Source: Botryllus schlosseri (Eukaryota). From it: a DNA stretch of 60,000 nucleotides. The notes under the pieces were generated by a model. It made no database searches. It saw only the letters and a program-made list of their open reading frames with translations, and was not told where the DNA came from. Location: assembly GCA_051294905.1 (NCBI GenBank), contig CM119371.1, forward strand, positions 38,256,001 through 38,316,000. The letters run 5' to 3'. A program made the translations under genes and the position numbers. Of the stretch, positions 4,464 to 47,300 are shown one piece after another. Each line of letters begins with the position of its first letter. Position 1 is the first letter of the stretch.

Positions 4464-6879
4464 CGGCACAACTGTCGGTGTCGTAGTCCCCGCCGTCGTC
4501 GTTGTCCCCGCCGTCGTTGTTGTTGCCGTCGTGTTCCTCATTTCTGTGTGCGGAAGACAAAGAGTCGGTTCAGCGAAACCAGAAATTTGCCTCCTTCAGA
4601 CTTTTACATGCTACTGGATTTTCGGGACGCACAACTAGAACGAGAACTAGGATTACTCACTTTCAAAACAGGCCACAAATTACTAAAACACCGCTAATTC
4701 TATTCAATTACGAAACTAATATATTCGTTTATATTTTTTTATCGGAATTGCGTCGGCTTCAATTTTCGGGTTTCAAATGGGAGGGTTCCGACTAGGGCTG
4801 GGCAAAATCGAGCAACTGAGTGATTCAATTCTGAGTCACGTAATATGCTTCGAGTCGAGTCGAGTAATCGAGTATCACACGTTATGACGTCATATATGAA
4901 TGTAATACGTCAAAGTTCAAATATGTACCGTTTATGCCCCCACAACGAATATAATGCATTTTATCCATGTCTTAAATGGTATTTCGGTATTGTTTCTACC
5001 ATACCGATTTCATTCCATTTGGTGACAATGTTGTGAAATAATCATGACTTCGGAAATGTGCTACATCCAGTAACCTTCGTAGCTTCGTACCATATGTTTC
5101 GTATGCTATGATACCGCCAATCAAGGTTTCAAGGCTTCAGCAGTGAAAATTAGTATCGAAACTATAATTCTTGTTGATAAATTAACTTTCAGTGGCGAGA
5201 AGCGTATAATTTCAGTACTCGAAAAAATCGTATTTTACTACTCGACTCGAATCATTAAAATCAATACTCGATTCAGATTCGAGTACTCGAATCATAGTGC
5301 CCAGCCCTAGTTTCGACCCCGAAAACCCATCCGCTACGCCAGTGCTAGTGCGGTGATGAATTTGAGTTAGCCATCGCTGTGAGAACACCACACAGCAGAA
5401 CGCCGGTATTCACGCCAAACGACGACAGTCGAACAGTGTAGTCTATTTCATCTACGACAATTTTGCGGACTCGTAACTACAGATTTAGAACTATACTTAA
5501 TTCTGGAAATCATCCACTACAACTACAAATTAGAGCTAAAACTACTATGAGAATCAGTAATTAATTTACCACCAACCAAACTGGATTGGTAGTTCGTACA
5601 AGTATGGCCTCGTTTCCCCCCGATACTCACGTTGAATCAGTTGTAGCAGCACGATGGTTCTTATCAATTCCTGCAACCGATTGTTAGGTGGCGGAGCATA
5701 TCGAACTGGCACGTATTGACTCCCTTGTGCGACGTACGCGCTCGCTTGCTGGATCGTAGAAAACTTGTTAATTCGGCGAAATTGTGCTCACGCATATGTT
5801 GAAAGAGATTGTATATATCGTGAAAAGTCAGAAGCCACCTGAGCATTACCACCAGACTTACAGATCCAGCGACGGAGGAAGACCGTCGCTCAGCCATCAA
5901 AGCCGAGTCACCATGGACAGTCGCGTATCGCTACACTCAAAACCTTACAATAACTAAAAAAGATACAGCTTGAAAAAATATATTCGTATTGAAATAAATC
6001 CAGATATATTCGGTAATCGTCAGTAACTATAGTAAAGAATTGAAACTCTGCATTTCAAATTGCCTCCTATAGTGTCTTCGCCATTACTCCTGACGAGTGT
6101 CAGCCGAAAATCCTCGGGTTTATTTCAATGTGAGTATATTATTCGATTGTATATTGAGGTTCTGCACCTCGATAAGCCTCTCGAAGGGTACGGATGTACG
6201 GAAAAACAGCGCCATTGAAAATATGTAGATGATAAATGATTACGGTAGGGTCAGTGATTTGTTGATTAATACAATTTAGTGGTATATGAACAGGCTCTTG
6301 GAGGTACAGAACTTCAATATACAATTGAATAGTATATTCATATTGAAATGAACCCGAATATTTTCGGCTGACACTCGTCAGGGGTAATCGTCAGCAACTA
6401 GTAGAGAATTCAAAAGAACAGCGTATATCAACAATCGTAACACGTCATATTTTGTGTTACGATTGTTGATATACGATGTTCTATTCAATTTAGTGGTAAT
6501 ATGATAGCCCTGAGTCAAACACAACTTTTTTCGAAAAACTCTCAAGAAGGCAAATTACGGAGATTAGACTATAAACTTAGTTCATATACTGACATCGCTA
6601 CACCCGATTGAGTTCTGCAAACGATTAGTGAAATGATGGTGATGCTCATACATGCGCAATCAACAGCGAGTGTTCGCCTGTATGTGGAACAAATTATCAA
6701 AAATGGTTGGGCTGACTTACTTCTCCCTGGTGGGTTGTCGGCCCCTGTCCAGCTTGTTCACCAGTAACTGCAATATCAACAAGTTCAAAAAGACCAATAG
6801 AGACAAATAGTCAGCAAAGATTCCCACCTCCGACGTAAGCGACTGCCACGAGCAGGATGAAACTAGGAACGAATCGCAT
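4464..6879 (-). CDS. Gene A (partial): secreted Thr-rich stalk / C-type-lectin-family paralog. Exons 6828-6879, 6721-6767, 5631-5748, 4464-4543; lectin exons 5-6 not found in window
   Basis: GT-AG exons of 52/47/118/80 nt with phases 1/0/1/0, matching paralogs B and C. Translation: MRFVPSFILLVAVAYVG-VTGEQAGQGPTTHQGE-QASAYVAQGSQYVPVRYAPPPNNRLQELIRTIVLLQLIQ-QMRNTTATTTTAGTTTTAGTTTPTVVP. Confidence 0.85.
4793..5309. mobile_element. hAT MITE family F3 (TAGGGCTGGGCA ends) in gene A intron 3
   Basis: TIRs with TSD gttccgac/gtttcgac; near-identical to 34317-34833 in the opposite orientation. Confidence 0.9.
6086..6119 (+). ncRNA. Minimal hammerhead copy with altered stem III
   Basis: ACUC-CUGACGA-GUGUCAGCC-GAAA-AUCC-UC-GGGU; core intact, stem III palindrome broken. 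Confidence 0.6.
6352..6385 (-). ncRNA. Minimal type I hammerhead ribozyme (intact core)
   Basis: Minus strand reads ACCC-CUGACGA-GUGUCAGCC-GAAA-AUAU-UC-GGGU: full CUGANGA/GAAA/UH core, stem I ACCC/GGGU, palindromic stem III. Confidence 0.8.
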
Positions 6880-11641: not shown

Positions 11642-11915
11642 GTTGTTGTTGTTTGTATATTCATGGTGTTTGTCGACTACGAGGGTCATTTACACCAGGC
11701 CGATATTCCTTATTTTTGATTCCGTATCTGCGGTCTCGTAGCAGGGCCCACTTCTAGGCTCTTTGTACCACACCGCTTACGAGGACGAGATGGCGAGGAG
11801 AGGAGCCTAGATAAACCTCCGACACTTAGGCCGGGATTCTGGACTTGACCTCGGTCGGACTCAAACCCACAATCCATTGTTGTTGTAGATGTGGATTATA
11901 CCATTACACGCTGTC
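11642..11915 (-). mobile_element. tRNA-derived SINE (family S1)
   Basis: Reverse-complement homolog of 47763-48035; degenerate A/B boxes, (CAA)n tail. Confidence 0.8.
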
Positions 11916-16018: not shown

Positions 16019-16757
16019 CTGTAATCCCATGGCTGGAAAATGGTTGCATTAAACAGATTTTCACCGGGTTATGAATTGTGCCTTCACATCCTTCCGATCG
16101 ATTAATTTGTGTCAAATACACCAATCCTTAGGGAGATATATCTTCAAGGTACTGGAGGTTTTGTTTTCGTTTATCACCCCAAGATATCACGACAAGAAAA
16201 AAAAGGCCACGATACCCGTATTCTGTGACAACAGAGGTATGTTGTGTACCATCGATCATCTAAAAATAGTGCATTGAGTTTAAGGTATCTGTTCGCCTCG
16301 ATTATTAGAATTTCAACGCCGGTGACGTGATATTCGGCAATACGATTGATGATATACCATGTTCTTTTCAAGTCTCTTCCAATTACTGAAGATTACCCCT
16401 GACGAGTGTAAGCCGTTTACATCAATATTAATATATTATCCAATTGTGTACTGAAGTTAAATCGTAGCGATTCTCATTACATGCCAAAGCTACTTCAAGT
16501 GGAAGGGGAGACTGACATGCTCCAGTATAGGTGACAATGGTAATCGACAAGGTGATCAGTGAGTGAGCAAATCATTGATGCTCAAAACTACAGTGACTGT
16601 GTCAAACAATGGATACAGAGAATATAATGCCATGCAGGTGCAATAAATCGAAGATAATTTGACATCCCCCGCCATATCTATTTCACGGCGCCTTGTGACG
16701 ATGCTGTTAGCTGATCACGACTACATAGAAGTATCATTTGTACTCACGATGCGTATG

Positions 16758-19262: not shown

Positions 19263-20491
19263 GTCTAGGCCTATCATACTTACTATTTTTACTCATTTTG
19301 AAATCGCTGATCTACTTGCAGTCGAGTAGAAACGTACGATATTACTTTTAAGGCTCCTTCGAGATCAAACTCGAATGACGTAGCGAGGCTTGCCGGTAGT
19401 CAACGCGCACCACAACCAAACCACACTTTATATATCCTTTAAATATATTCGTTGACCAAGCCAAGGCATATTAATCTCTTGCAGTAGTGGGATGAGGCAG
19501 TGACACGGCGAATTAAAAGTTACACAAAAACAGACTCAAATGCTAGCCTAGTTGTGTCCTATCTAACAGTGCAAATCTGACCATTTTTCCACAAACGACA
19601 TTTATAGTACGCATTACCCCAGTCGAAAGGTAAATAACTACTTGATATGCCAATTAAAAAACATCAAACACATACTAAGAGCATGGCTTGGTGAATGCCC
19701 GAATGGCTTTATACTTCTAAATAACGATGGTTATATGCTATCGTTACAATTACTTCTACTTGACGTACGACGGCGACCGCTTCAACCGAATCTGCTAATA
19801 ATTTATTAGAAGGATATCAATATCCCGAGTCCAGCAGTCAGCATATTCTAGACTCCCTGAGTAACCTGTTTTTACGGCTAATGTCCGATACCAATAGTTC
19901 TTTCTATGTACACTAGCGACTCGATATTATAGACAACCCATTAATTTTATCTCTATTCAGATTCGCATCTAACTCGATTTGGATTCGTATTCGATTCACT
20001 GCCGCTGCGTGTTCACTACGAATACGACCAACCAGTTAACTTTCGTTGTCAAATTGGACCAATTGGTGCGAAATGCCGGTAATCCAGTTCTAATCCTACC
20101 TGCGAAATGTTTCTATCATCGAATTTTAATTCTTGTCTATTCTCTGGTTTTCCTGAAAATGCTACAGCGGAACTGTGTAGTGCGAAACGTGCCAGCCATG
20201 TTGCATACAGACAGTTGTCATTCTCGTACTTACGAGGATTAACTCTTATTTGATATGATATGAACAGAAATTGATTTCGTTGTATTTCTTTCTAAGTCGA
20301 GATATGATTGAATTTTCAGGCCTTTATCGAATTCGCTAATTCCAATTCCTAACTAATTTGGACAATCTGAAGATTTTCTACTTTTCTAACTTTGACTCTG
20401 TCAGCCGAAAATATTCGGGCTCATTTCAATATGAATATACTATTTAATTGTAAATTAAAGTTCTCTACCTCCAAGAAGCTCTTGACCTGAC

Positions 20492-20589: not shown

Positions 20590-23500
20590 CTAGGGGCAAT
20601 ATTCGCACACGTAGAACTTGGTGGCGGAGCCAGAGGTAGCCGACAAGTCGATGTTGTTGAAGGTGGGTGCGATCGCAGAGCCGCTAGACGAAGCTGTACC
20701 GTCCGAGTACGTCTCACTGACGCCGGACTCGGTGGCGTAGACTGTGCCATCCGTCCACTTCGCGGTGGTAGTGCCATCGCCGTCTGTGTCCGTCAGCCCC
20801 AGCCAGACTGAGCCTGTGAGTCCCAGGTGGGTTTGGAAGAGCGCCCTGGAAGAGTGAAGAAACGCATTGACAACGCGCTGCGAAATCGTGGCGAACAGGA
20901 TCGCCGAAATAGCGGCATGGTAGAACAGCATGCTAATTGGACGCAGGGCTTGTATCTCTCATGCGACCATAAAGAATATTATGCCAATTCTAAACCACGT
21001 TAAAAATAGTTTGGTATTTTTAAGTCAAGACTAGCACACTGTACCACGCGACAATGGTTGATCACGACTACATAGAAATGTAATTTCGATTCAATCACGT
21101 GAATTAGTACTTCATGATTCGCATTTTGCGATCCGACCGATCGAGGCTTCAAGAAATACTATCGAATATACAGCTTTCATTGATAAATCAGCTAATAGTG
21201 GTAAATAGCATCATCATCATCTTTGGTTTATTAGCAATTTTATCAGTTCAATACACCACAAAAAATGCGATACAATGAAAAGAAAGGAAGATGCCGAAGC
21301 GACTAGGAGTTGTCTATGGAATCGGACACCCACCTATATAATTTCAGAAATACCATCTCTCACTGCTCCACTCGAATCATGAAAATTAATATTCGATTCT
21401 GATTCGAGTGCTCGAATCATTTTTGCCAGACCCAGTCAGTAGTCAGAGAACTGTAATCTTAAATCGCTATACCGGTGTTATTGACATATTTCTTATAGTT
21501 TGTTGCAGTGGCTCCCAACCTTTTCCGACTCATCGCCCCCTCATCAAGCTCGACATATATTTATCGCAGGGTTGTAACCAAGTCACAAGGCTCCGAGTCA
21601 CAAGTCAATCTCACTTTCCTAGTTTTGAGTCGAGTCAAGTCGAGTCATTTTCAATTCACCACCGAGCCAAGTCCAAGTCCGAGTCATCGAGCAGAGGTTC
21701 GAGTCGGAGTCATGGTGTTATGATTCGAGTCCGAGTCCAAGTCATTGTGCTGACTGCTCAGTTTCCAGTTAAGGTCTTTTACAGCTCTTTTGGTGATATC
21801 GAATGCTTCGCATAATATACCAATTATCCCCACAGTTTCTGGTCGCATTTTGAAGTACCAGTACCAATAGACAAAATCCCAATAAGGTGGTTACCCTACT
21901 CTTCTTCGAAACTTCAATGAAATGGCGGAGTCGAGTCGAGTCATATGACTTGGTTCGAGTCATGTGCAATGACTCGAGTCCAAGTCAAGTCAATACACAG
22001 GTTGACTCGAGTCGAGTCGAGTAATTTCCGTATTTTGAGAAAATGACTCGAGTCATTAGAAATTCGTGACTTGAGTTGGACTCGAGTGGAGACTCGAGTC
22101 ATTACAACCCAGATCTATCACCCCCTCTTTTTTCGGATGCGAGAATGACATATTAAGGGGAAATTTGTACTGATGACTCTGATCGCTGGTAAATTGACCA
22201 AGTAAAACAGGCAACTTTTGCGGCGATCCCTAAAAATTCCGGTATCTGATTATACTTTGTGGCGAGTTGACCTATTTTAGTCAATTTTCGCGGTGGTACG
22301 AGAATAACCCGATTTTCACGTGCATTTTGTGGCGGCATTCGGTTGCTGGTTAATTAAATAAATGCATGAATAATCAGAGGTGGTCATAGTAACGAAGTAC
22401 TTCCACATTTAAGAAATACTCAAATAGTTTGTCGCTACTTGGGTACTTACTAAAGTAGATCTAATTTCCCGCTACTTCTACTCGCTATTTCAGTTTCTCA
22501 AGTAGAAGTAGTTGAATTCTCCAATCATACAGAATGGCAGAGGAATTTCAGGGCTGTTTTGACGAAGTATCAACATTTAATTTTCAAGAAAGTTACAAAG
22601 TATCGACGAATATAATTTAGGAAGCGGGTTGCGTGGTTCCGTTTATACCACATTGTCGCCCATATGAAGTATTTCATCACAGTAAATATGGCCCATAATA
22701 ACGTTCCAAACTAAAATTTTGAAATGTAGCATTTACTTATATCTGGAAAAGTGGACTTTGTCTTTTCTTAGCTTTACACCTGTTTTAGCAGGGAGTAAAT
22801 AGGTTCCCGACCCCTGTTCTAGACTATACTTCCGTTTGTGGTTAACAGTCTTCAGCTTTTAGTCGAAACTAGGAATAGAATACTTAGTCAGACAACTCTC
22901 GCGTGTAAGTAAATGGACAACATTACGTCTACTTGAGTACGTACGATGTCTACTTTGATCACCTTTGTCTCCACGTATGGTCAACCTTGAACACGCTTTA
23001 CAAATCTCGAATATTCGATTAGTAATCAAAGCATACATTCGAGTCGAGGTGTTCGGTAGCTTACATAGAGAGGGGTCGTAATTCGTGCGTTGCATTCAAA
23101 TATTTTGTTCGTCTGTACCATGAAGAATGTCGTATTTTTCTGACGGTTCAGTTGCAAAAAGTCTGCACTCACAGCCGGTCCGCCGCGGTCCTGACGTTCT
23201 TATGCGCGAGACCCACTTTGGGGCCGAATGCTGCGCACGCAGCCGCTGCAACTGTCCCAGTCGCCGGAAAGTTACTGGCTTCGTACTGACATCCTTTGTA
23301 GGTTTTCCAGTCGGCCTGCAATGTAGATCAACATTTTGAATAACAGGCGTTTATATCGAACGAGTGCGCGTACCGACTCCTGATAACACACCTATGCTAT
23401 CACACCTACTTTTGAATGTTTTAAATGAGTTTATTTAACTTAGGGATGACGGTCGGTTTCGCTGATTGCTAAAGAAAATGAAAATTTGAATCTATGAGCA

Positions 23501-26500
23501 TTGAGAAGCGATCTGATAGATATGCTGATTCTACTTTTGATTGAATTTTCGGACATACAATCCTGGTGGCATTATAACCATGTTACTGTTTAACACGCTT
23601 TACAATTGAATAGTATATTCATATTTAAATGAACACGAAATGAGCAACTAGGTGAGAATCTCACCCTTGACTCATCCGGTAAACCTTGATGCTTGGCAAT
23701 CAAAGGCCATAAATTCTGCCATTGGCTAACATCTGTTGGATAATCCAGCTTGTGCGAAAAACTATTGAGACTACAGATTTCGATACGCTGGGAGGGGCCG
23801 TTCACACTTTCAAATGTGTGCCGTGGAGTCGAATTTCATCAAAATGCACCAGCCCAGACTGTGTCTACAAAAAGAGTATGTGTAGGCCTACCATCTAAAA
23901 TAGTACATTGAAATCTCTCGTATTTGAATTTTCATGCTGGTGACGTCGTATTTTGTGATACGATTGTTGATATGCAATGTTCTTTTCCAATTCTCTACTA
24001 GTTCAGTTTGTTTCATTAGCAATTTTTATCAGTTCAATACACCACAAAAATTGCGATACAATGAAAAGATAGGAAGGTGTCGAAACGACAAGGAGTAGTC
24101 TTTAGAATCAGACACCCACCTTGGCCTAGACCAGGGGTTCTCATAGGGTGGGCCATGGCCCACTGGTGGGCCACAGAGCATTTTTAGGTGGGCCACAGAG
24201 CTATTTAGAAAAATCAAAATTAATGTAAGTTCAGTTATATTTCTTATGTTTTTGCTAAATATACATTCGTATTATCTAATTATACGTAGGCTATATACAT
24301 AAAGCTTTTCATCCGACTCTGATTAGACGTAGTGGCACGTATGAAGTCAGCTTGTACAAATCGAAAACGTAAGGGAGAAACGGTGGCTTTTTCTACTGGC
24401 TATGACAACCTACAGCTAACAGGACCTAAAATAATTTCAATCGTATAATAGGTCTAACTGGAAGATAATGCTGAAGTAACCAAGTATTCAAGCAGGGTCA
24501 TATGTCGTATGCCGTTGAATGGGATATGTAATGAACTTGCAATGAAGTGGAATTGATGTACAGATTTACTGTACTTCGGCAGGCCGTATTATTGCAAGCT
24601 AAAATTAGCCATAATTGCAAATTATTAGCAACTTCTGGCCGGGGTATACTGCACCACCGCAACGAATCTTAATGGATTGAGGATTTAACGGAGCGCATTA
24701 ATCTTGGAAGTCGGTTTAAAATGTCCGGCCTGGAAATCATTGTACATAATGAAAGAGTCACAGGAATTGATTGTATCATTGGATTGAATATTCTGACATC
24801 GCAACTTTGGTTGTTTTGGTACAAGACGTACAAAGTAGCCTACATCATGCATATGGAAAAATCTTTCTCCACTTCTCTGTAGTACTCCATTCACCAATTA
24901 ATTGTTCGATGCTGGCCCAGAATGATTTTAATATTCCCCACAATAGTATCACTCAAGTCCTAATCGCACAGTGCGGGGATCTCATCATTGTCTTTCGCGA
25001 CGCGAATGGAGCAGCGGACGAAAATAATCTACTTAGGAGTTTTAGCATATGATCTACCAGGGCCGTAACTGGAGGATATTTATTCAACTAGAATTTTTTT
25101 TCGCGCTTCGCGCGATTTCGTATCCCGGGAGATCGGGATTTAAATATCATCACTTAGAGAAAATGCATGCGCATATTTTAGAGAAATAGGCATATCGGCG
25201 CTGTCCATGACCATGCATTAAACAGGATTATGACTGTAAGATATCAGGTGGGCCACAGCACATTTTTAAACCGGAAAATGGGTCACGGCCAAGAAAGGGC
25301 TGAGAACCCCTGGCCTAGACGATGTAAAGAGAAGGCATGTACGCTGAATGAAAAGTAAAAGAATATAGAAAAGAAGAACCAAACTACAAAAAGTTGCTGA
25401 CAATTACCTCTGACGAGTGTCAGCCGAAAATATTCAGGTTCAGTTCAATATGAACATACTGTTTGATCGTATATTGAAGTTCTGTACCTCCAAGAAGCTA
25501 TTCTAATACGCTTTAGCAAATATCCAACACTGTTGTTGTGTAAAACATGCCTTCGTCACATTTTAGCGATAACGACAGCAGCACAATGTAATGGTGTCTT
25601 AAAAATTTTTCCGATTCCGCAGCTCATAATTTGATAAATTGTACCTATTATAATTAGGACGTGAGGTTGAAGGGAAGTGTTCCAAAGTGCAGTGACCTGT
25701 TCGCTGTATGTAAACTGATACTTATTGAAATACCTCTAACGTCGAAATATATTTTACCAAAGGCAGCACTGAAATTAATAAAATTGATGGAGTTTTAGGT
25801 TTACAATCACAGTCGTAATTCGAATTGAGTCATTTCCGTTTTGACCGGTAATAAATTAAAAAAATACACTATAATAAGATCATGGTATCATGGTGAAATA
25901 AATTTCAAAAACGCTCATTCGCTGCAGTAATTAGATTTTCAAGTCGCAGTTTATCAATAGTTTGAGGCTTTTTTGGGGCCGCACAAAATGTTGACGGGCA
26001 ATAGTTTGTCAACTTTCATATTACAGACACCTATGATGTGAACCGTGATGTAACAATAGCAACAAAGACGGATTGAACTGTACTATAGTACAGAATACAG
26101 TTATTCAGAAGTTACACAACTAAAAACAACAAGACTAATATGAGAATTGCAAGTTATAACGAATTACTTCCGTCTGCATAAATTTGATTGTTCAACATGA
26201 TATAGATGGTAACATCAGTTTCTTCAGTAACTTCGGTGTTACCAGGTCGGTGTTGCGTTCGTAAAATCTATGTTTGTTGCAAGCTATTGTTACATTGCGA
26301 ATTTTACGGTCTGCGATTGTAATAACGATCATAGTTTTGTTGTAAATAAACTCTTACGAAGATAACACACGTCACCCACCGATTATTCGCCGTGTCGTTA
26401 CAGACACGGGCATTAAGCGGTAACGCAGTACTTCGATTTTTTGAGTGTGTTTTGCCAATCTGCGTTACATCATGTAGCCTATCTCTGTGCTATTTCAACC

Positions 26501-32500: not shown

Positions 32501-33479
32501 GCATATCTTCAGCTTTACATATCACGGTATGATTTGAAGGAAAATGACACCGACGCTATACTTCGAGTTTCACAGACACCCTTTCGACATAGTATACTTT
32601 GGCGTTTTTCGCCGTAGGGCCGTTCAATATAAAGCGAGATATCTCCTCCAAGTTGCGACGGAATCTCAAGCGCAGCGCGAGCTTATCATGAGGCTTGCAA
32701 AGATATTTGATTTCATACATACATTGAAGATTCATCAGCACGCAACATCCAAGTCACCTCACGCATTGATACACAGAAAAGGAAAGGTTCTTCTGAGATT
32801 TGTTTGGCGCCACTTTCATATAGCGATGTTGCTGCGTGTTTGAGGATTTGGATCAACGTTTAAGTCGTTAGCTCAGGAATCATGAAAAGGATCACTAGCC
32901 TGGTGTAAATGGCCATAGCAGTCGCAACACCCTGAATAACTAAAATTACAACAGCAACAACAATACATTAATCGAAATTGACTGGCAAACTTCATCATGC
33001 TTGAGCGAATTCACCTAATCACAGCGAATTGCTGCCTATCCATCAGCATTGGTCTCTTCTCTTAAATGTCACTGATAGCAGATGTGAATCATGTCAAGTT
33101 TAAGCAAATAATTATAGCGGTGGCTTCGCACCTCCAAGCAGTATTGATTTTCTTATGAAAGCCCCATTCGCAGCGCGGACGAAATGAACGTGCCGGAATG
33201 AAAGTACCGCTATGCCGTCTAGCTAGGACTAGTAAGCTCGTCGGACGAGACATGTCGGGAAGATTCCGTTTCTACCTCTCTCTCCTATTTTGTTGCTCGG
33301 TACGGATCACTGCCTCGCTACACTCGTTCTCGCATCTATCAATTTTCACACCCGCAGTTCCGTATGCAATGCAGTCAGCTGACGTCACACAGTCCGTAAA
33401 TATTGCACCTCAATTGTTAATTATCTAAAGTCCTGGTGTCAAGATTACAATCTGAAGGCACTTGAATAAAATTTCGAAC

Positions 33480-33690
33480 GACACTCTTGGAGATATATAA
33501 CTTTAATTTACAGTTGAATGGTATATTCATATTGAAATAAACCGGGATACTTTTGGCTGATACTCGTCAGTGGTAATCTTCAGTCAATAAGAACGACTGA
33601 AATTAACATCGCACATTAACAACCGTAACGCCAAATACGACGTCGAAGGCCCGAAAATTCGTGTAGGTTAATCGAGACGAACAGATGGCT
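33480..33690 (-). mobile_element. Degenerate copy of the hammerhead-bearing repeat
   Basis: Same flanks; core mutated (GAAA>AAAA, UC>CC) at 33541-33574. Other partial copies at about 16280-16460, 20398-20478, and 23915-24003 plus 25391-25500. Confidence 0.7.
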
Positions 33691-34316
33691 CACTGTAATA
33701 TTTTCAGATTATACAAGAACGTTGTCAGAGATTTGGTTTAACGAATTTTGATTAAAAGTGAATTCGACACACGTGAATGAGACAACGAACGGCCTCTCTC
33801 GACAACGGCCGTTTCCCGCTTTAAATACGAACCTGATTCTTTACAATAACTCGAAAGAGAAACCTGGCCGTCAGAAGCTTCCCGTCCATTATCATGCGGT
33901 CAGCAAACTAAAACGTTTTAACCAATCTAAATCCGTTATTTTACAGGGAAATCCTCATCTCGGATTTCAATTTCGTGTTCCATCATTGTAGCCTACTCCG
34001 TGCGAAGAATACAGTAAGATATGTTGCGCGTTACTGCGCAAGCTACGGTATTGAGCGATACGAATTTACGGACGATAACCGTCGCTCAGCAATATTGTAC
34101 TTCATGAAACAATACGTTTTCCGTATCTCCTCTCGAATGCATACGGTTTAGGTACTTATAAGTTTCATAATTTAGTGGCAACTCCTAGTATTAATATGAA
34201 GGTAGAAAAGCTACATCAAGATGCCTTATTGAATGTTTCAGTCCACTGTGCAAATTATGCATTTGTTATGGGATTTAAAATCAACGCCCGGGATCGTCGC
34301 ACAGATTGCTCGCAAC

Positions 34317-34833
34317 TAGGGCTGGGCACAATGATTCGAGTACTCGAATCTGAATCGAGTATTAATTTTAATGATTCGAGTCGAGTAGTAAAATACGATT
34401 TTTTCGAGTACTGAAATTATAAGCTTCTCGCCACTGAAAGTTAATTTATCAACGAGAATTATAGTTTCGATACTATTTTTCACTGGTGAAGCCTTGAAAC
34501 GTTGATTGGCGGTATCGTAGCATACGAAACATATGGTATGAAGCTACGAAGGTTACTGGACGTAGCACATTTCCGAAGTCATGATTATTCCACAAAATTG
34601 TAACCAAGTGGAATGAAATCGGTATGGTCGAAAAAATACCAAATTATCATTTATGAGATGGATAAAAGGCATTATATTCCTTGTGGGGGCATACACGGTA
34701 CATATTTGACCTTTGACGTATTACATTCTTTTATGACGTCATAATAAGTGATACTCGATTACTCGACTCGACTCGAAGCATATTACGTGATTCAGAATCG
34801 AATCACTCAGGTACTCGATTTTGCCCAGCCCAA
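34317..34833. mobile_element. hAT MITE F3
   Basis: TIRs present, perfect TSD ctcgcaac. Confidence 0.9.
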
Positions 34834-36029
34834 CTCGCAACAAGGGAGAATTGACTTAAACGCATAGCTTCGAATTTCCCGGACGTCCCTTCGACACATA
34901 TTTCTCTGATTCACAGAGCGCCGTTATTCGCGGCAATCGCAGGAGGGCCGTTCGACCTGAAGCGGGATATCTCCGTCATGTTGTGACGTAATCTCAATTG
35001 AAGAGCGACATATATGCCTTTTACAAACTGTTGAAATCTGTAAGCTTTGAAACCAAGTTTCCATTTAAACCAGATTCCACGCAATGGTTAACGCGGTTTG
35101 ACGTAATTGGGTTTAAGGTTGCGCTCAATCACACCCGTCAGCATTAACGCGGTCTACTGGCGTCCCTGATATAAGCTCTGAAAGATTAACTGTCACAAAT
35201 TACTGTGAGTAAAATCTTCACTCAGCTTGCTATATACAGAGGTTATCATAGTCTGCCTCATTTTCCCTCGACTACATGTAGAAGTGGCGATTTTCCACAA
35301 TAAGCATCGTGTCGGAGTTACCCGGATCTGGCTACATTAGAAATTGTCAGATGTATCCACGCGCTTAACGCGAACAGACTATAATAACGCTACAAATTGG
35401 TGAAAGTATGAAAACGATAGTAAGTTACCGTGGTGCAGCTGTATTACGCCCAGTTTGCACGGCGATCCTCATCATAAATGCGATTCTATGATATCTCCAA
35501 ACGACTGTCTACTTTACAGATTGCCAGGTGTGAAAATAAGTAGTTTTGCATGAAGAATTGTTAAGTAGATGCGGAAGTAGTCAAATCTCAAATGCAATAC
35601 ATTGCCCGAGCCGATAGAGAACAGAGAATGTGCATTACTAGGAGACTTAACAGGTTGCTTCATTTCGTATGGACTGTATAGCACAGGCGGAACTGCACTG
35701 TAAAAAATAAAGGTGGGTTTTTGGCAAAAATGGAGGAAGAAACTATAATCCTTCCTTTTACGAGAGGTAGATTATGCCATACACCTGTCAAGAAGGTATA
35801 ATACATTTTCCTACCTCCAGAAATACATATTCCACCTCCCAAAACCCTCCTATAAAGTGATATATACGATACATTACTTTATAGGAGGGTTTTGGGAGGT
35901 GGAAGATATATTTAAAAAACTGCATCGCGCATAATAGCTCCGATAGTTATCATGCATATTCCAGTCAAAATACATACAATTTCTACTGAATCAATACCAT
36001 AGTCAGATCAAGATTACCGGACCATCGAC

Positions 36030-36495
36030 CTGACGGTTCTATACCAATACCGAGAAAACCATTACCGAGAATGGACATTACCGAGAATGCCATTACCGAG
36101 AATGGATATTACCGAGAACGGACATTACCGAGAATGGTCATTACCGAGAATGGTCATTACCGAGAATGGACACCACCGAGAATGGACATTACCGAGAATG
36201 GTCAATGTCAAGAATATAGATTACTGGGACTGACGTTGTCGAGAAATTTATACCTGAGCATCGATACCGAATGTGGCAACGCCGTGATGCACTCACGGCA
36301 CGACCTGTGCATATGCATAACATGCCTGTATTGCATATATTGCATTCTCGGTAATGTCCATTATCGGTGGTGTCCATTCTAGGTAATGTCCATTCTCGGT
36401 GGTGTCCATTCTCGGTAATGTCCATTCTCGGTGGTGTCCATTCTCGGTAATGGCATTCTCGGTAATGGTTTTCTCGGTATTGTCCGGACACCCGA
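36030..36495. mobile_element. Foldback-like palindromic element with arms of tandem 16-bp units (ACCGAGAATGGACATT)
   Basis: About 10 direct units at 36047-36205 and about 9 inverted units at 36343-36482 around a unique core. Confidence 0.85.
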
Positions 36496-36503
36496 CCTGA
36501 CAT

Positions 36504-37019
36504 TAAGGCTGCTGGGCACAATGATTCGAGTACTCGAATCTGAATCGAGTATTAATTTTAATGATTCGAGTCGAGTAGTAAAATACGATTTTTTCGAGTA
36601 CTGAAATTATACGCTCTTCGCAACTGACAGTTAATTTATCAACGAGAATTCTAGTTTTGACACTATTTTCCACCGAGAAAGCCTTGAAACCTTGATTGGC
36701 CGTGTCGCAGCATACCAGACATAGTACAAAGCTACGAACGATACTGGAAAAACATATTTCCGAAGTCATGATCATCGCAAAACATTGTCAAGAAGTGTAA
36801 TGAAATCGGTATGGTCGAAAAATACCAAAGTATCTTTAATGTGACGGATAACAGCCATTATGTTCTTTGCGATGGCATAAAAGGTACATATTTGAACTTC
36901 GACATAGTACAGTCTTTTGTGACGTCATAATGAGTGATACTCGATTACTCGACTCGACTCGAAGCATATTACGTGATTCAGAATCGAATCACTCAGGTAC
37001 TCGATTTTGCCCAGCCCTA
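36504..37019. mobile_element. hAT MITE F3
   Basis: TIRs present, perfect TSD cctgacat. Confidence 0.9.
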
Positions 37020-37905
37020 CCTGACATATCGATCCAATTTTTTTTATCACCTGCATGTCCTTTTATATCATCATTCTTTTACTCTTCGCATGCAGTGCAT
37101 ATATACTGCTCCGACTCCGGACTGTGGCCACCTCTGCACGTGGCCCATGCACAGATATCGATCTATAGTCTTTGAAGAGTTGCAGTCGCTGCAGTTGGTG
37201 GTGTTGGGCGATAGTTGCTCGGTTTATGATTATGGAATGGAATTGTCCCGTTGAGTCGTGCAAGATAAAAGCATTCTCTAGCCGACTATATCTATTAGAT
37301 CATTTACGAAGCATTAGGTTACCGTTACGCGTTACTGATTTTTCTGAGATTCGTAGTAAACAACCAATGCATCACTGTGACATCACAAGCAGCGTCTGGT
37401 TACGTCAGTACGGTAAGTAGTGACATCACATGGAATAAATATCAATTTATACGCAATTAGATGGGAAAGAAAGGGACTAGATGTAATGATAAATGTTTCT
37501 GTAAAAAAAACGACCTAAATCAAACATTATAACGCAGTGGCCTGTAAATATTATTGGTGGCATGTCAGCGGATGAATACCACTTATTTTGAAATCGTTAG
37601 AGTGGCGTATCGTCGTCTGGCCATTATAGAGATTTGAGCAAAGGGTGGAGCGAAGCTTGTGCTTGAAGAAAGTGGGCACGATCGTTGAAGATTCCTAGGA
37701 ATGCTGATTGGGATACGCATCGTAAAAGGTACGTTTAGTAAACCATTTCGAAATGCCGAAATTGATTTCAGTTTAAACATATTGCTGTTGTTGTTCACAG
37801 TAAGCCATTCTGATTCTACTGTGCCCAATATCACTATTCCTTCATCGGTATCCTTCATCGGTATCCTTCATCACTATTCCTTCATCTTCACTTAATTTTG
37901 TACAG

Positions 37906-38842: not shown

Positions 38843-39722
38843 TGAGGGAACTTCGCGCGATGGGATGCGGTTTCGTGGCCCGCCCGCCACCATGCCATGG
38901 GAGTGGAATGAAGCAGAGGTGCTAGGGTTGTAGTGGTAATGGCTGTTTGCCTCCGCTAGCTGATATTTGTTTGCATTCAGCCGCAGGTATGCCTTAAAGC
39001 GCAAAGGGGTTCCGAATGTGTGGGCCATTAGGGGGCGGATTGCACTTAGAAATATTTCCAAGGGGGGAACGGTGTAAAAAGGTTCGGAACCTCTGCCTTA
39101 AAGGGTCACTCCGCTCTATATATGATGCGATCTCAAATTATAATTGCACGCAAGAATGGTCATCCTCCCTTAATTAGACGTCGTATTCGAAATGCAGTTA
39201 AGAGACCAATCGATCTAGTGCAGTGGTTGCCAAACTTTCTCTGCTTGCGGCACACTGGAAAAATTATATTACGCTTAAAGGGACTGAGGGAACTTCGCGC
39301 GATGGGATGCGGTTTCGTGGCCCGCCCGCCACCATGCCATGGGGGTGGGATGAAGCAGAGGTGCTAGGGTTGTAGTGTTAATGGCTGTTTGCCTCCGCTA
39401 GCTGATATTTGTTTTCGTTCAGCCGCAGGTATGCCTTAAAGCGCAAAGGGGTTCTCAATGTGTGGGCCATTAGGGGGTGGATTGATTTTAGAAATATTTA
39501 CAAGGGGGGAACGGTGTAAAAAGGTTCGGAACCTTTGCCTTAAAGGGTCACGTCACTCTATATATGATGCGATCTCAAATTAAAATTGCACGCAAGAAGG
39601 GTCATCCCCCTTAATTAGACGTCGTATTCGAAATGCAGTTGAGAGACCAATCGATCTAGTGCAGTGGTTGCCAAACTTTCTCTGCTTGCGGCACACTGGA
39701 AAATTATATTACGCTTAAAGGG
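38843..39722. repeat. Head-to-tail tandem duplication with a unit of about 442 bp
   Basis: 38843-39284 and 39285-39722 are near-identical. Confidence 0.92.
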
Positions 39723-41321: not shown

Positions 41322-44300
41322 TTACGGAGGACAGAACTCGCAAACGTAGAAGGCCGTCGATAAACTCATTGGGAACTGAATGGTACTGTAGCTGCTACCG
41401 ATAGCAGTGGCGCCCCCGGAATTATCTCCATCCCCGATCAGAGTCGTGTCGCTGTCTGGGAGGTAATCTGATGAGACATCGCCGTCGAAATTCTCAACCC
41501 ACTGAAAATCGATTTCGTTTACCTCTCCGTCGTCGTCGAGAAGAGGCAACCAAACGGTACCCGTCAATCCTAAGTGGTTCCGGAACAGCGCTCTAATATT
41601 GGAAAGGAATCGTGATGTCATGGTGTCAAGTAGGGTTGCATTTAAAACAATAATCAATTTAAGACAAACAGCTTTAAATCAAGGCCCTTGTTCAAAACAT
41701 GTTTTCTCGTTGTTAGGTGTTTGTTTGTTTAAGCCCCGTCGTCACGAATATTCAATTGTGACGTTATAGTGTGCTGACATTCACAATTGAAAATATAGGG
41801 AAAATATAGCTCCTTTGACGAAATAGGCTTCTAACCTCTGTAGTACACGGACCACAAATATCTTAAACCAAGACTACATCGCCATGAGAGAGAGAGAGTC
41901 TTTATTTTCATCGAACCAAAATACATAACAAACGGCAGTGATGGTGGTACAGAAAACATGCATGCACAGTATTCGGTATTAGATAGGAATGATCGATAAG
42001 ACCGTGAAGGTCATCTAGTCTGATCACACCAGCATCAAACAGGTACACTTGACTCTGAACAGTCTGGCTGTAAAGAAATGTTTAGTTAAAGGAAAATAGA
42101 AAAAAAAATTAAACAATGGTGGCAAATGATCAATGAAGCAATGTCTGGGCGAGGTAGGGCAACAGTGTTAGTGTAACGACAAGAGGTGATCAAGTAGGGC
42201 TTTTTTGAATCTATTATAAGGCAATTCACGGATATGTGGTGGTAATGCATTCCAGATGATAGGTCCCGCATTTTTACGGTCGGCGATCATCATCATCAGA
42301 ACATTCGTTCCGTACCAGCTATCTATATATCTACGTACTATAGCCGGTAAAGGAGAGAGAGAGAGATGTGGTATTCTTTTTCGCCTGCACCATCGAGATG
42401 CTCTGACGACGGAGATGCGATACGGCCTTTATAGTAAGATCATCCAGACTGCACCCCCGGGTTTTTTCTCCTCCATGCCATCCGTGATTGCTGGGCGCCT
42501 AACAGGACAGCCGCGGATACCAGCTTTCGAGTCTTTGGTCTGACTCGGCCGGGGATCGAGCCCACGACCTACCGATCGAGAAGCCGGACGCACAACCATT
42601 ACACTATCTCGCTCGGTTGAACAGGGTATTCCGAGGGTTCCAACCATTCCATCTCGTATACGTCCGCTATATCGGGAGGTAATCGTTCGTAGGCTCATAC
42701 AAAATGTTTTTTGGAAAGTATGTACATACAATTATGGCATCATTATACAACTTGAATAAAACACAATTTTATTTCATATGAAACGGCTTTTGTTTCAAAC
42801 ACTGTTCAAAACACGTTTCAAACAAAGTGTTGTAAACAACCATTTGTTTTGAATGCAGCCCTAGTGTCATGACTAAGGCTGAGTACAATGACTCGAGCAC
42901 GCGGATCTGAATAGAGCAGCGGTTCTCAAAATGTTCAAGACACGCCCCCCTTTATGATGATGGAAAATTTCGCGCGTTCCCTCGTCATGATATTACAAAA
43001 TATTAGAAATAACGCACAGAATGCAGCAACCCTAACGGTTAGGTTGATGGCATGGAAGGTTATGGCTGTTGATGAGAGAGTTCTCGGATATGAAATTTGG
43101 ACTACACTCAGAGCAGTTACTAGGAAACAGACGTAAATCGTGCACAGCGCGAAAAATCCTTCAGTTGACTGCAGTTTCGCGCCCCCTTCAGATGGTTCCA
43201 CACCCGCCAAGGGGGTCCCGCCCCCAGTTTGAGAACCACAGTAACAGCGTATTATTTCCTTTGAATCGCGTCGATTAGTGAGAGACAATTCCTTCGAGGA
43301 ACGAAATTATGCGCTCGCAGCCACTAATGGCTATATCAGACGTAGCTTGCGAAGGTGGCGTTTTCGTTTGCTTCAACAGACTTGTCTGGGACAATGCTGA
43401 AGAAGCAAACAAAATTACTATTGGGTAGCAGATAGCGGAGAAGCCTAAGCAGATTTTTAATCTCTGTGTGCCTATTACGTATTATATATCTTGATGAATA
43501 TTGACGCTCTTACACACAACGCAGTTTACTACCATACGTCTTACTTTCTTTCGTTGCTGCTATCCGTTGCAATGAAAACTATGCTCCAGCTGAGCGAGTC
43601 CGCTTGACTCTCGGTGATGTCAATCAATCCTTGTTAAACCATAGTGTCCTATATCGTGCGGACACGAGCAAATATCACGGTTCAGTGAAATTGGTCTACG
43701 TCACACTTTCCATTTGGTCAAAGGTAACTTTACGGCCATATTTGACCGACTTGCCGAGCGCTAAATTCGATGAAACGGGTATCAATGGAAAGCCGCTGGT
43801 GTACTGATGATTAAAATATAGATTTATTCTGCTCATGGTCATGGAACCCTAAAAAATCAGCCTCGAATTTGGCCTTGTGATAGAGTTTTGACATTGTGAC
43901 GCAACCATTCTGTCTCGAAAAACGACAGTAAATTTAAGAAGAAAGAGCCAGACAGCATTATTGCGTCACAATTCAAAACTCGATTACAATGCCAAATTCG
44001 AGGCTGATTTTGGGGGGTTTCAGGCCTTGACATCTCAATTTCTCGTATCCCAACATATGAAACATGTTGTCCAAAGCTACGCACGTCAGTAAAATCAGAT
44101 GTCTGTGAAGTCGCGTTGATTCCACAGCATGGCCAGAATACACCGTAGTAAAATCAAATGGGCGTGATTGCAAAGATAGCAAATTAGCTTTAATCTGATG
44201 TAGAGCTTGCATTATCAGTCTCAAAAAGGCATATATTTGTACTGGCGTCATAATGGGTGAAATTCGTAGCGTAATACTCTATTCCAGGTGTCGCCAACCT

Positions 44301-47300
44301 TTTTACCACCAATGGCTACTAGGTACTGATTAACAGTGTTGGGATGACTCGAGTCATGACTTGAATCGAGTCAGATTCGGGTCAACTTTTTTGTATGACT
44401 TGACTTGACTTGAGTCACTTTGCAAAAATGACTTGACTTGACTTGACTTGGTGCTCCAGAAATGTGGATTGACTCGTGACTCGGAGGAAAATTTACGAGT
44501 CAATTTCAAGTCATTATAAGTAAACCGTGTCAATTAAATCACAGTGACTTATGCATGTTCAGTTTTGTTCGCAATACGACGGTGTCACTTGTGAGAGCAA
44601 CCAGTCATTCACTGATTGTACGTTTCACTGATCTTCCATTGTTACATCACAAATAACTTGACTGCAAACGAAACGATCACAGCTTATGTTGTCGTAGTAG
44701 CAGTAGGTAACTCTAATAGAAACGTATCTTTGCTTCTTAGACGGCTCAGTGCTTGCAGGCAGTGCCACCTCTTCACCAACACTCGTGTAAGCTTTTTCTT
44801 CAAGTCTAACGAATATATGTAATTTTTGCGTTTTTGTCGTCACGGATATGTAGATGGGTAGTGTATTGCACCACATCAATTTGTTCAACTTCTCGAGGCT
44901 TCGTATTCGATCCAGTGTATTGACTGATAATAACAGACTGTAGCATGTAGGTATACAGTTACTCGCGTATTTTATTAGCAGTTCTAGGTGTGCGTGAGCG
45001 ATACCACACCTTTTTGCATGTATGTTTAACTTTATATTTGTTATATGATTCAAGATAAATCACCAATTAATCTGTACTTCACCCAGTTAGTCAAATATAA
45101 TGACTTCGCATCTTTACTCATACTTCTAAAATTCAATTTGACTTGACTTGTGACTTGACTTGTCTGACTCGACTTGACTCGAGTCACCTTTAATATTCGA
45201 TTGACTTGACTTGACTCGAGTCAAAATGTGCAATGACTTGAGATGACTCGGGACTCGAAGGTAGTGACTTGATCCCAACACTGATGATTAATGCGACTGG
45301 CTACCAGTTACGCCCGATATTTATAAGTTTTCAGTTGAATTTCTTCATTTAGACCAGTTGTTAAAACTTTTGTAGACACGCCCCCTTTATGATAGTGAAA
45401 AATGTCGCACCCCATGTCGCCAAATGCAACCGGAATGCTAGCAATCCCAACGGATAGTTTGATGGGCATGGAAGGTTATGACTGTTGATGAGAGATTTCC
45501 CCAAATACGAAGTATGAAAATAAATATGAAATTCAGACTATACACAGAGCAATAAGTATAAATTGCAGATACATAAATCTTCCGTTGACCGTTTTCACAC
45601 CCCGAGGGATTAGGCATCAACATCGTTAAATATTTATACGCTACGTGCAACCATTGCACATGGCTATGTTTAAAAAACATTCAACTGGTATTCTTTTCGA
45701 TTTTCGCGCGATGTACCCCCAGCTCTATGTATAGTCTAAATCCCATATTTGAGACGTGTCTCAACAGACATAACATCTTCCATGCCACAAAACAATGCGT
45801 TGGGATTGCAAATATTCTGTTGTTACTGTTTTCATTAATGTTTGATACCACGATAAGGGGAGGCCAAAGTGTTCACCGTCAACAAGGTGCATGCATCGAA
45901 AAAGGGTCCACAACCACTGCTCTATTCAAAACGAATACCTCAGTTACTCGATTTAGCCAAAGCCTATTCCTGACAGTCGCCACATACGTTGAAGCAAATT
46001 ACATTACTCACTGACGATCGGGTGCCGTCCTCACGTTCTTATGGGCAAGAACGGAGCCTTTATCCTTGCAATCTACACTAGCTTCAAATAAAAAGTTTGG
46101 AGTCATCGTTGTATGATAGCGACATCCTTTGTATTCGTTCCAATCCTCGAAATCTTCCTGGAATATCAGAGAGTTTTCTGAGATTCTGACCGCAATTTTC
46201 GAGATCGTGAACCCCTGGCCTGTACCAATACTCTCGCACAGTCCTGATATTTATCCCTAACTAGTACCGTAATGACTTATGAGTGGGGCGATTTTTTTGA
46301 CATAAAAACGAAAGATTTTGATCTAAAAAATTATACTTTTGACTTTTTTTGACATTAAAAACTCAATTTTGACCAAATTTTGAACTCACGTAGGTAAATT
46401 AGGAGTTTTCTCACAAAATGGTAGAATTGTGCTACTTATCGTCATTTCTGGTTGGAACTGTCAGTCATGACGAGGTAGTTAGGCCTGAGCTAGCTTTTTT
46501 GACTTGAAAAATAATAAATTTTTACATGAAAAAACTTTATATCCACTAAATCTGGACCGATGAAGAATTCCAGTGGGTGCATCACGCATTATGGAAGACA
46601 TAATAAAAATTTGTATTAGTTATACGAAAAATACTTTCCTTACATTCCGAGGGTAGGAAGTGCCTGCCTTACTAAGTTGATTGCCAAGAATGGAGAAAGA
46701 ACGTTCAACAGTTGCAGATGTTAGCTGGTAACACTGAAGTTGCGTGTACAGTACACAACTGGTGACACGCCGTGTTTCTTCATTCCGGCAATTTTGTCTG
46801 CATCATAATTTTTCATCATGCGCTTGTTGATTTGAAAACCAATGCCCATTGCCCACGCAGACTTGCTTCAGTTAGGAAATTGCGGCACGATGAGCATAAC
46901 ACCACGCTAACCAATTTGTTTCATTTGGCCGTTTATGATTCGCAATGAGCAGATAATGGGCTGTTTACAACGGTAGGCCGATAAATTGGGCTACAAGCTA
47001 TAACATATCAATGATAAAAGTTCATCCACAGTGCAAACATCTACGATACAAACGAAATGGTGGTTGAAAGAAAATTTTGACTCTGTACACAATTTTGACA
47101 TTTTTTGACCTATCGCTACAATTTTGACAAAACTGACTTTTTTCGACATGTCAAAAAAAATCGCCCTATTTCTGAGTATAAAAATGAATTTATCCGATGT
47201 AAGTTGCATTTGATATTGCTTGCACCCCAGCAGGTACCCCTACGATTCACCCTATTGAAGAGCACTGCTAGTTTAGATATATAAGCAACATAGATGCAAA

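What the first reader, a model, noticed from the sequence alone, without database searches (positions are those of the whole stretch)
25391..25500. Dispersed hammerhead-carrying repeat family with stem I covariation (Penelope-like pLTR or retrozyme)
Seen: at least seven copies or fragments of a non-coding repeat of about 200-300 bp lie in 60 kb (about 5985, 6085, 6300-6445, 16280, 20398, 23915 plus 25391, 33480). Stem I is ACCC/GGGU at 6352, ACCU/AGGU at 25406 (a compensatory double change) and ACUC/GGGU at 6086 (wobble), which is direct evidence of selection on the RNA fold. No TIR, tRNA head or ORF is visible. Inference: a non-autonomous ribozyme retroelement mobilised by a Penelope-like RT, possibly through circular RNA, and probably an undescribed family.
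Basis: partly seen in the sequence, partly recalled or inferred. Interest (0 to 1): 0.75.

Follow-up and report, generated by a model that had tools for sequence, protein, structure and literature searches.

The report
Abundant Penelope-type repeat with knotted hammerhead
The scattered repeat is the tail end of a very abundant Penelope-type jumping gene and carries a small hammerhead ribozyme motif, a known arrangement in animals; only the motif's predicted knot looks unusual, and the claimed proof of selection on its fold does not hold up.

Summary
The repeat and its type I hammerhead core are real: ten segments cover 2.3% of the window, three with an intact core, and the family is hugely abundant in this animal and a second organism. 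The covariation claim fails: one compensatory pair in six copies (186 of 500 shuffles reach it), one copy breaks that same pair, and the two changes differ in frequency across four public runs. [quoted passage not shown] No recurrent tandem or circle junction and no pile-up of RNA ends was seen, so a retrozyme is unlikely. The RT/GIY-YIG parent was not found; truncated tails versus a ~320-bp non-autonomous unit stays open. Unchecked scan notes describe similar PLE hammerhead repeats elsewhere, one 'knotted' in this genome.

The parts
25392..25503 (+). Copy B, 3' part: ribozyme plus ORF-start tail (the flagged piece)
   Evidence: 88% to copy A
25396..25402 (+). Upstream arm, 7 nt, complementary to loop II (predicted pseudoknot)
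   Evidence: sequence; 7 of 7 Watson-Crick in B, 6 plus one G-U in A; chance about 0.003
25406..25439 (+). Type I minimal hammerhead: stem I 25406-25409 with 25436-25439; CUGANGA 25410-25416; 1-bp stem II 25417:25425; loop II 25418-25424; GAAA 25426-25429; palindromic stem III/loop 25429-25434; predicted cut 25435/25436
   Evidence: descriptor scan; alignment; activity not tested
25450..25503 (+). Probable start of a PLE ORF (ATG plus 17 codons), ending at the family's shared 3' end
   Evidence: 12 of 29 substitutions synonymous, null mean 7.8, p 0.019 for this one frame; read-through hits stop matching here
23792..24003 (+). Copy G: 5' part of the same insertion as B
   Evidence: colinear with B, 4-nt overlap; 7-bp direct repeat beside both outer ends, weak (p 0.055)
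24004..25391 (.). 1,388-bp later insertion that splits G from B
6290..6449 (-). Copy A: intact core, 5'-truncated; predicted cut 6356/6355; ATG 6341-6339
6442..6490 (+). Inverted 5' piece abutting copy A (PLE-type inversion; makes the 6407-6490 palindrome)
6272..6289 (.). Target-site duplication of copy A, one side
   Evidence: 18 matches with 1 gap, score 16; 0 of 19,960 random pairs reach 15
6486..6504 (.). Target-site duplication of copy A, other side
6081..6180 (+). Copy C: core intact, truncated just before stem I (no upstream arm)
5973..6052 (-). Fragment I, degenerate, head to head with C
   Evidence: E 6e-7
16216..16462 (+). Copy D: long 5' part, 12-nt deletion through GAAA and the cut site
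20399..20485 (+). Copy E: truncated inside loop II
33479..33798 (-). Copy F: longest uninterrupted copy (about 320 bp), core mutated
23599..23639 (-). Fragment H, tail region only

Best explanation
These are decaying retroposed copies of the pseudo-LTR (pLTR) of an endonuclease-bearing Penelope-like element. A linear RNA that runs through the pLTR, the hammerhead and the start of the next ORF is bound by a PLE RT/GIY-YIG protein. The protein nicks AT-rich DNA and starts reverse transcription at a fixed internal site about 55 nt into the ORF, which sets the shared 3' end. Synthesis usually stops or switches strand early, giving 5'-truncated and inverted copies. The ribozyme is copied uncleaved. 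It has a 1-bp stem II, a palindromic stem III that would need a second copy (dimer), and an upstream arm that can pair with loop II. Shown: copy structure, fixed 3' end, inversions, one clear target duplication, abundance, motif sequence. Inferred: the PLE protein, the internal start, the ORF start, the pseudoknot, any cleavage. Within this reading, truncated tails of an autonomous PLE and a ~320-bp non-autonomous unit are about equally likely.
For: Shared 3' end: loose ends at 6295/6296 in all 4 runs laid (X1 231+736 contigs, X20 105+276, X23 125+351 reads, X21 592+1471), then heterogeneous flank with agreement 0.46-0.58; 9 gene-caller read-throughs of other copies match within this stretch and none shares sequence beyond it. 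5' limits differ among copies. 10 of the 15 joints shown change strand (235 not shown); copy A has an abutting inversion inside an 18-bp duplication. No TIR. Motif fits the published PLE consensus in core, G10.1-C11.1, short stem I and palindromic stem III, close to the Drosophila Penelope form. In the anole PLE the hammerhead sits at the ORF start, reverse transcription starts inside the ORF and fixes the genomic 3' ends, and no reads end at the cut site (PMC11167929); one search likewise lists no pile-up of ends.
Against: No RT or GIY-YIG was linked to any copy: none in the window, and no long protein with this N-terminus among 85 candidates or in the representative library. The reading-frame signal is weak (p 0.019 for one of six frames, chosen after seeing the ATG). 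A clear duplication was found for 1 of 5 copies tested and a weak one for G+B. Rfam gives no hammerhead match at E up to 1 for the window or up to 10 for copy A. Every one of the 56 published PLE motifs read has a hairpin stem II of 3 bp or more. Predicted lowest-energy folds bury the core in rival hairpins, z -0.3 to -1.0.
Confidence: 0.8

Rival explanations
1. Non-LTR retrozyme: tandem monomers of about 320 bp are cut out by the hammerhead, circularised and reinserted by a PLE protein; the window holds dispersed monomers.
For: Size (about 320 bp), low GC, type I hammerhead, long duplication on copy A. Retrozymes derive from PLE pLTRs and have dispersed monomers (bioRxiv 10.64898/2026.07.22.740005). 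F and G begin at the same point.
Against: No tandem copy in the window. Flanks after the 3' end are heterogeneous in DNA and RNA; the 3 'goes back' joints shown have single-locus depth (23-32) against millions for the family. The 3' end is fixed 66 nt past the cut site, not permuted or at the cut. The motif is minimal, not the canonical retrozyme type (PMC7229834). RNA reads are rare (4,200 of 12.9 million in X23) and 99% run on into unrelated sequence. Caveat: contigs collapse arrays, and these libraries may miss circles.
Confidence: 0.08
2. The motif is a dead or chance hammerhead look-alike in the tail of another retroposon (SINE or LINE 3' end); the conserved folds are the two small hairpins, not a ribozyme.
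For: No Rfam match; lowest-energy fold is two hairpins that bury the core; the hairpin model pairs 82.7% of cells, the ribozyme model 82.4%; core positions mutate as often as stem positions in the runs laid.
Against: All core nucleotides, G10.1-C11.1, A15.1-U16.1, a 4-bp stem I, a palindromic stem III and a 7-bp arm coincide in 45 nt; 0 descriptor hits in 6 Mb of simulated DNA. No tRNA head, no poly(A) or simple-repeat tail. The hairpin model has no varying pair at all.
Confidence: 0.08
3. Non-autonomous DNA transposon (MITE) with a variable core.
For: The window is rich in TIR elements, and copy A holds an 84-nt palindrome.
Against: No complementarity between the element's ends; one end fixed and the other ragged; the palindrome is private to copy A and lies inside its duplication.
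Confidence: 0.03

Closest known systems
Minimal type I hammerheads in pLTRs of metazoan Penelope-like elements (Cervera and De la Pena 2014, PMC4209133; read: text parts 1-2 of 4, supplement file 2 parts 1-2 of 3)
   Same: Core boxes, G10.1-C11.1, 4-bp stem I, palindromic stem III for dimer cleavage (nearest: the Drosophila Penelope form), mostly single dispersed motifs from truncated copies, pairs on opposite strands 100-700 bp apart.
   Different: Published motifs have a hairpin stem II of 3 bp or more and usually an extra base after A9; here stem II is 1 bp and its loop can pair upstream of stem I. The published Ciona motif is unrelated in stem II. No linked RT shown here.
Poseidon element PAc of Anolis (Frangieh et al. 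2024, PMC11167929; read: parts 1-2 of 4)
   Same: Hammerhead at the pLTR-ORF junction, genomic 3' ends fixed inside the ORF start, AT-rich targets, no RNA reads ending at the cut site.
   Different: PAc's ORF begins in stem II and its 3' ends lie 111-118 nt into the ORF; here the ATG is 14 nt after the cut and the end about 55 nt into it. PAc has a shown protein.
Pseudoknotted hammerheads, including one with a 1-bp stem II (Perreault et al. 2011, PMC3088659; read: passages)
   Same: A helix between the stem II region and the stem I region stands in for loop-loop contacts; a 1-bp stem II can support fast cleavage.
   Different: That example is a metagenomic type II ribozyme, not a PLE minimal motif with an unstable stem III; it was tested by mutation, this one is not.
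Non-LTR retrozymes (Cervera and De la Pena 2020, PMC7229834, read: part 2 of 6 and passages; Li et al. 2026 bioRxiv 10.64898/2026.07.22.740005, read: parts 1-3 of 5)
   Same: Short, AT-rich, non-coding, type I hammerhead, PLE-derived, dispersed monomers occur.
   Different: Defined by tandem units that each hold a hammerhead and by circular RNA; neither was seen here.
Naiad PLEs with 'HHR_core' (Craig et al. 2021, PMC8557442; read: passages, sections 7 and 11, supplement part 1 of 59 and searches)
   Same: Tens of thousands of 3' ends per genome in marine invertebrates; CUGANGA and GAAA 7-17 nt apart without canonical stems (9 nt here); by eye, three Darwinula Naiad 3' UTRs have an arm after CUGACGA that pairs upstream.
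   Different: Short strings of this family were not found in the Naiad consensus file; the Darwinula motifs lack a stem I partner; no Naiad protein is linked here.

Membership tests
EN+ Penelope-like element | ORF with telomerase-like RT and GIY-YIG endonuclease joined to the repeat | tested here: inconclusive
   None in the window (0 of 40 ORFs); no long protein with this N-terminus; no genome held; copies are too short to reach an ORF end
EN+ Penelope-like element | Fixed 3' end with frequent 5' truncation | tested here: met
EN+ Penelope-like element | Inverted 5'-truncated piece abutting the 5' end | tested here: met
   copy A inside its duplication; 10 of 15 joints shown change strand
EN+ Penelope-like element | Hammerhead core in the pLTR near the ORF start | tested here: met
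   core in 3 copies; ATG 14 nt after the cut, weak frame signal
EN+ Penelope-like element | Partial tandems forming two pLTRs around an ORF | not testable with these tools
   needs the genome; only single-locus 'goes back' joints seen
EN+ Penelope-like element | Optional 30-40 bp tail (two 3' end points) | tested here: inconclusive
   main end at 6295/6296; lesser loose-end sites at 6316-6333 have low agreement or come from single loci
PLE minimal hammerhead (Cervera 2014) | CUGANGA, GAAA, UH, G10.1-C11.1, short stem I, palindromic 15.2-16.2 region | tested here: met
PLE minimal hammerhead (Cervera 2014) | Hairpin stem II of several base pairs | tested here: not met
   1 bp here; 3 bp or more in 56 of 56 published rows read
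PLE minimal hammerhead (Cervera 2014) | Covariation across families or copies | tested here: not met
   1 of 14 pairs, 186 of 500 shuffles; unequal frequencies in 4 runs; only 6 copies, so little power
Hammerhead ribozyme | Self-cleavage after C17 | not testable with these tools
   needs an assay; no pile-up of RNA ends in 2 raw-read runs, which fragmented libraries may hide
Non-LTR retrozyme | Two or more head-to-tail units each with a hammerhead | tested here: not met
   none in 60 kb; no recurrent junction among joints shown; the genome could not be searched
Non-LTR retrozyme | Abundant monomeric linear and circular RNA | tested here: inconclusive
   0.033% and 0.060% of reads, diverged and embedded in other transcripts; libraries not made for circles
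Naiad clade | N-terminal GIY-YIG, CxC motif, C-terminal RT | not testable with these tools
   no protein linked to the repeat
MITE / DNA transposon | Terminal inverted repeats | tested here: not met

The most novel reading that the evidence does not exclude
This family carries a working PLE hammerhead of an undescribed build. Stem II is a single pair, and loop II has two possible partners: the CUGAC of the catalytic core (an off hairpin) and a duplicated CUGAC just upstream of stem I (an on pseudoknot that frees the core and docks stems I and II). The ribozyme would then be switchable by folding, by protein, or by splicing at the acceptor-like site just before the arm, and truncated copies without the arm would be locked off. 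If the same build explains the stem-less 'HHR_core' motifs of Naiad elements, the reported lack of hammerheads in some PLE clades is partly a gap in the search descriptors.
Probability: 0.25. Interest if true: 0.6.

Novelty: new variant of a known kind. Interest (0 to 1): 0.35.

Why it matters
As a family it is ordinary: one more very abundant PLE tail repeat, useful for annotating this genome (about 2% of this window). The ribozyme build could matter more. The role of PLE hammerheads is an open question, and reviews describe them as lacking the stem I-stem II contact (PMC7761336, passage). A 54-nt natural motif with a predicted pseudoknot and a rival off-hairpin gives a cheap, direct test of whether PLE ribozymes are regulated switches, and a descriptor for motifs that current searches miss.

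Tried and rejected
Stem I covariation as evidence: rejected; the changed G is in a CpG, and CpG sites are over-represented among the listed transitions (6 of 8 against 5 of 18, p 0.034), although the window as a whole is not CpG-depleted (o/e 1.11). Rfam: no hammerhead family matched; the microRNA hits are palindromes. Searches for the family in public collections found nothing: metagenome exact 26-mer 0, genome contigs 0, viral 0. A looser structural pattern gave 16 metagenome loci of 49-69% GC; none has BLAST similarity to the family, so they were dropped. Protein searches with the ORF-start translations gave 1 hit and 13 hits: 9 are gene-caller read-throughs of other copies, 4 are repeat-driven false hits; no polyprotein. 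Upstream of copies D, F and G no coding remnant is visible. TSD search: 4 of 5 copies negative. No RNA holder was listed for the 9-kb stretch, which is no evidence either way. The taxon could not be fixed from the lectin-like exons. Depth ratios from contigs (19 on the flank, 3-4.5 million on the element) were not used as a copy number. The strand skew in the single-cell run was not interpreted. Lunse et al. 2016/2017 (PMC5785218) is not held; I saw only its title and recall the rest, and its alignments may already hold this build. Supplement file 1 of PMC4209133 was not searchable, and bioRxiv supplements are closed.

Full report
What is there. The window is repeat-rich animal DNA of about 40% GC; 35% of it matches itself. 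No genome is held. An unchecked scan note calls the genome an ascidian (e1-7882894); I could not confirm this from the two lectin-like exons. The flagged 110 bp match four other places at 78-88% identity. A profile built from seven pieces finds ten segments at E<1e-4, 1,397 bp in all. The pieces at 23792-24003 and 25392-25503 are one copy of about 325 bp split by a 1,388-bp insertion: they cover positions 4-51 and 48-159 of copy A. Copy F (33479-33798) is the longest unbroken one.

The motif. Copies A (6385-6352, minus), B (25406-25439) and C (6086-6119) hold a complete type I hammerhead core: 4-bp stem I, CUGACGA, a single G-C pair closing a 7-nt loop II, GAAA, a 6-nt palindromic stem III region, and UC before the cut. 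The descriptor, written after seeing the motif, gave 3 hits in the window and 0 in 100 simulated windows. Rfam's hammerhead models do not match. D has lost GAAA to the cut site, E starts inside loop II, and F has AAAA for GAAA and CC for UC. The arm repeats the core's own CUGAC, so loop II has two partners: the core (hairpin, -5.4 kcal/mol) and the arm (-7.8 as a plain hairpin). Predicted lowest-energy folds are inactive and no more stable than shuffles (z -0.28 to -0.96).

Covariation. The three stem I variants quoted are real, but they are not evidence of selection. Of 14 pairs in 6 copies one changes on both sides, and 186 of 500 shuffles reach that; F carries an A-C mismatch at the same pair. 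In that alignment C's upstream columns are flank and D's 3' columns are misaligned by its deletion. In the four runs laid, G1.1>A stands at 19.5, 1.9, 8.3 and 5.8% and its partner C2.1>U at 2.4, 0.9, 3.2 and 11.2%; the neighbouring C2.2>U is about as common, and core positions G8, C11.1, G12 and C17 vary as much. These counts are not phased, so a small compensated subfamily is not excluded. A C-to-U change at a C-G pair always leaves a wobble. G1.1 lies in a CpG, and CpG sites are over-represented among listed transitions (6 of 8 against 5 of 18, p 0.034; the table hid 124 rows). The rival two-hairpin fold pairs as many cells but has no varying pair. The pseudoknot arm has no change on both sides either, and D and F weaken it.

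Abundance and ends. I laid 4 of the 24 listed runs on 6200-6446. In the DNA run X1, 88,561 of 23.8 million contigs were laid; summed depth is 19 on the unique flank and 3-4.5 million on the element. That is no copy number, but with nine loci in 60 kb it points to a family of at least tens of thousands of copies (inference). Organism B holds it too (6,821 of 8.75 million contigs). All four runs show the same 3' end, about 66 nt past the cut site, followed by heterogeneous AT-rich flanks. Nine proteins in public collections are gene-caller read-throughs of other copies; most match up to this point and none shares sequence beyond it. 5' limits vary. Ten of the 15 joints shown change strand, three go back and two skip; all have single-locus depth (235 not shown). 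Copy A has an inverted 5' piece and sits inside an 18-bp duplication (score 16; 0 of 19,960 random pairs reach 15). The other four copies tested gave none, and G+B has a weak 7-bp candidate (p 0.055). There are no TIRs and no tRNA head.

RNA. In the bulk run X23, 4,200 of 12.9 million reads were laid (0.033%), evenly in both directions, mostly diverged (178 at 99% or more), and 99% run on into unlike sequence. No place shows a pile-up of ends, and depth is flat across the cut site. This fits passive read-through of embedded copies. It does not exclude cleavage or circles, which such libraries can miss.

ORF start. An ATG lies 14 nt after the cut, and the shared 3' end falls about 18 codons later. 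Of 29 distinct substitutions among seven copies, 12 are synonymous in this frame against 6-9 in the other five; the permutation mean is 7.8, p 0.019 before allowing for six frames. No long protein begins this way among 85 candidates or in the library of representatives, and none of the 40 window ORFs matches RT or GIY-YIG. The ORF start is therefore probable, not shown.

Mechanism. PLE insertions are described as 5'-truncated, often with an abutting inverted copy and a hammerhead in the pLTR (PMC8557442). For the anole element, reverse transcription starts inside the ORF's first 120 nt and so fixes the genomic 3' ends; the ribozyme lies at the ORF start, cleaves only with protein, is not needed for insertion, and leaves no read ends in RNA-seq (PMC11167929). 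Every observable here fits that model. I put it at 0.8. Whether the copies are tails of an autonomous element or a ~320-bp non-autonomous unit is open: F and G start at the same point and G+B may be bounded by a duplication, but an alignment ends where the shorter copy ends, and the missing polyprotein is weak evidence.

Comparison. It works like a PLE pLTR with a minimal hammerhead. Membership of EN+ PLEs is likely, but the defining ORF was not linked. It fails the tandem test for retrozymes within the data at hand. The motif meets the published minimal consensus except in stem II: all 56 representative rows I read have a hairpin of 3 bp or more, and a review says PLE motifs lack the tertiary contact. 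A 1-bp stem II with a pseudoknot is known from a metagenomic type II ribozyme. Naiad elements are reported to hold stem-less cores with a 7-17 nt spacer, and by eye three Darwinula Naiad 3' UTRs have an arm after CUGACGA that pairs upstream; I did not test this by tool. Ten literature searches showed no description of this family or of a pseudoknotted PLE minimal hammerhead, but Lunse et al., the likeliest place, is not held. Unchecked scan notes report another PLE in this genome with a 'knotted second stem' before its start codon (e1-7786987), a head-to-head PLE insertion (e1-7856734), and similar truncated hammerhead tails in another genome (e1-7808612); I had written my reading before seeing them, and they are leads only.

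Verdict. Real feature, known kind of element, overstated covariation, with one untested structural variant worth a bench assay. Interest 0.35.

Noticed in passing
window 6398-6420 (-), also 23975-24003 (+): A pyrimidine tract ending in CUAG lies just before the pseudoknot arm and looks like a splice acceptor; in Drosophila Penelope an intron ends at the 5' side of stem I. D and F lack the AG. No spliced joint was seen, but the stretch laid reached only about 50 nt upstream.
   Followed up: partly
run X1 on window 6355 and 6381: In this DNA run G1.1>A reaches 19.5% of depth and a one-base loss in the C run before the core 7%, far above organism B (1.9%, 0.04%): perhaps a young subfamily with a weakened stem I that still amplified.
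   Followed up: no
run X21 on window 6290-6446: Single-cell reads are skewed about 2.7 to 1 between directions; several loose ends have high agreement, so a few expressed host loci probably dominate.
   Followed up: no
P0011: A predicted protein joins an SH3 domain to a read-through of this repeat: an exonised copy or an unspliced transcript.
   Followed up: no
PMC8557442 supplement, Naiad-1/2/3_Dst 3' ends: By eye, a C run plus CUGACGA is followed by an arm that pairs with sequence upstream, like the build seen here; only Naiad-1 has GAAA close by.
   Followed up: partly
window 34310-34841, 4785-5316, 36511-37020 and older copies: 532-bp MITE-like family with short TIRs; at least 12 pieces in the window.
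   Followed up: partly
window 47220-49706: 2.5-kb element with about 470-bp inverted ends at 75% identity; internal parts recur at 23151-23608 and 11643-11903.
   Followed up: no
window 24004-25391: The insert that splits copy G+B has short imperfect inverted ends, a 4-nt overlap at the junction and a nested MITE-like piece.
   Followed up: partly
window 36045-36485: Two arrays of a 16-bp unit facing each other as an inverted repeat.
   Followed up: no
window 38843-39722; 35821-35913; 43842-44022: A tandem 440-bp duplication and two long palindromes, the latter giving spurious microRNA matches.
   Followed up: no
window 20590-20955 (-) and 41325-41648 (-): Two paralogous exon-like frames, 38% identical, that resemble C-type lectin domains by recall; no Pfam match and no homolog among longer proteins.
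   Followed up: partly
window 41468 (+): A CUGAUGA...GAAA string with a 3-bp stem II, antisense to the second lectin-like frame; stem I is poor, so probably chance.
   Followed up: no
L001-L016: Sixteen metagenome loci with short-stem hammerhead-like strings, unrelated to this family.
   Followed up: no
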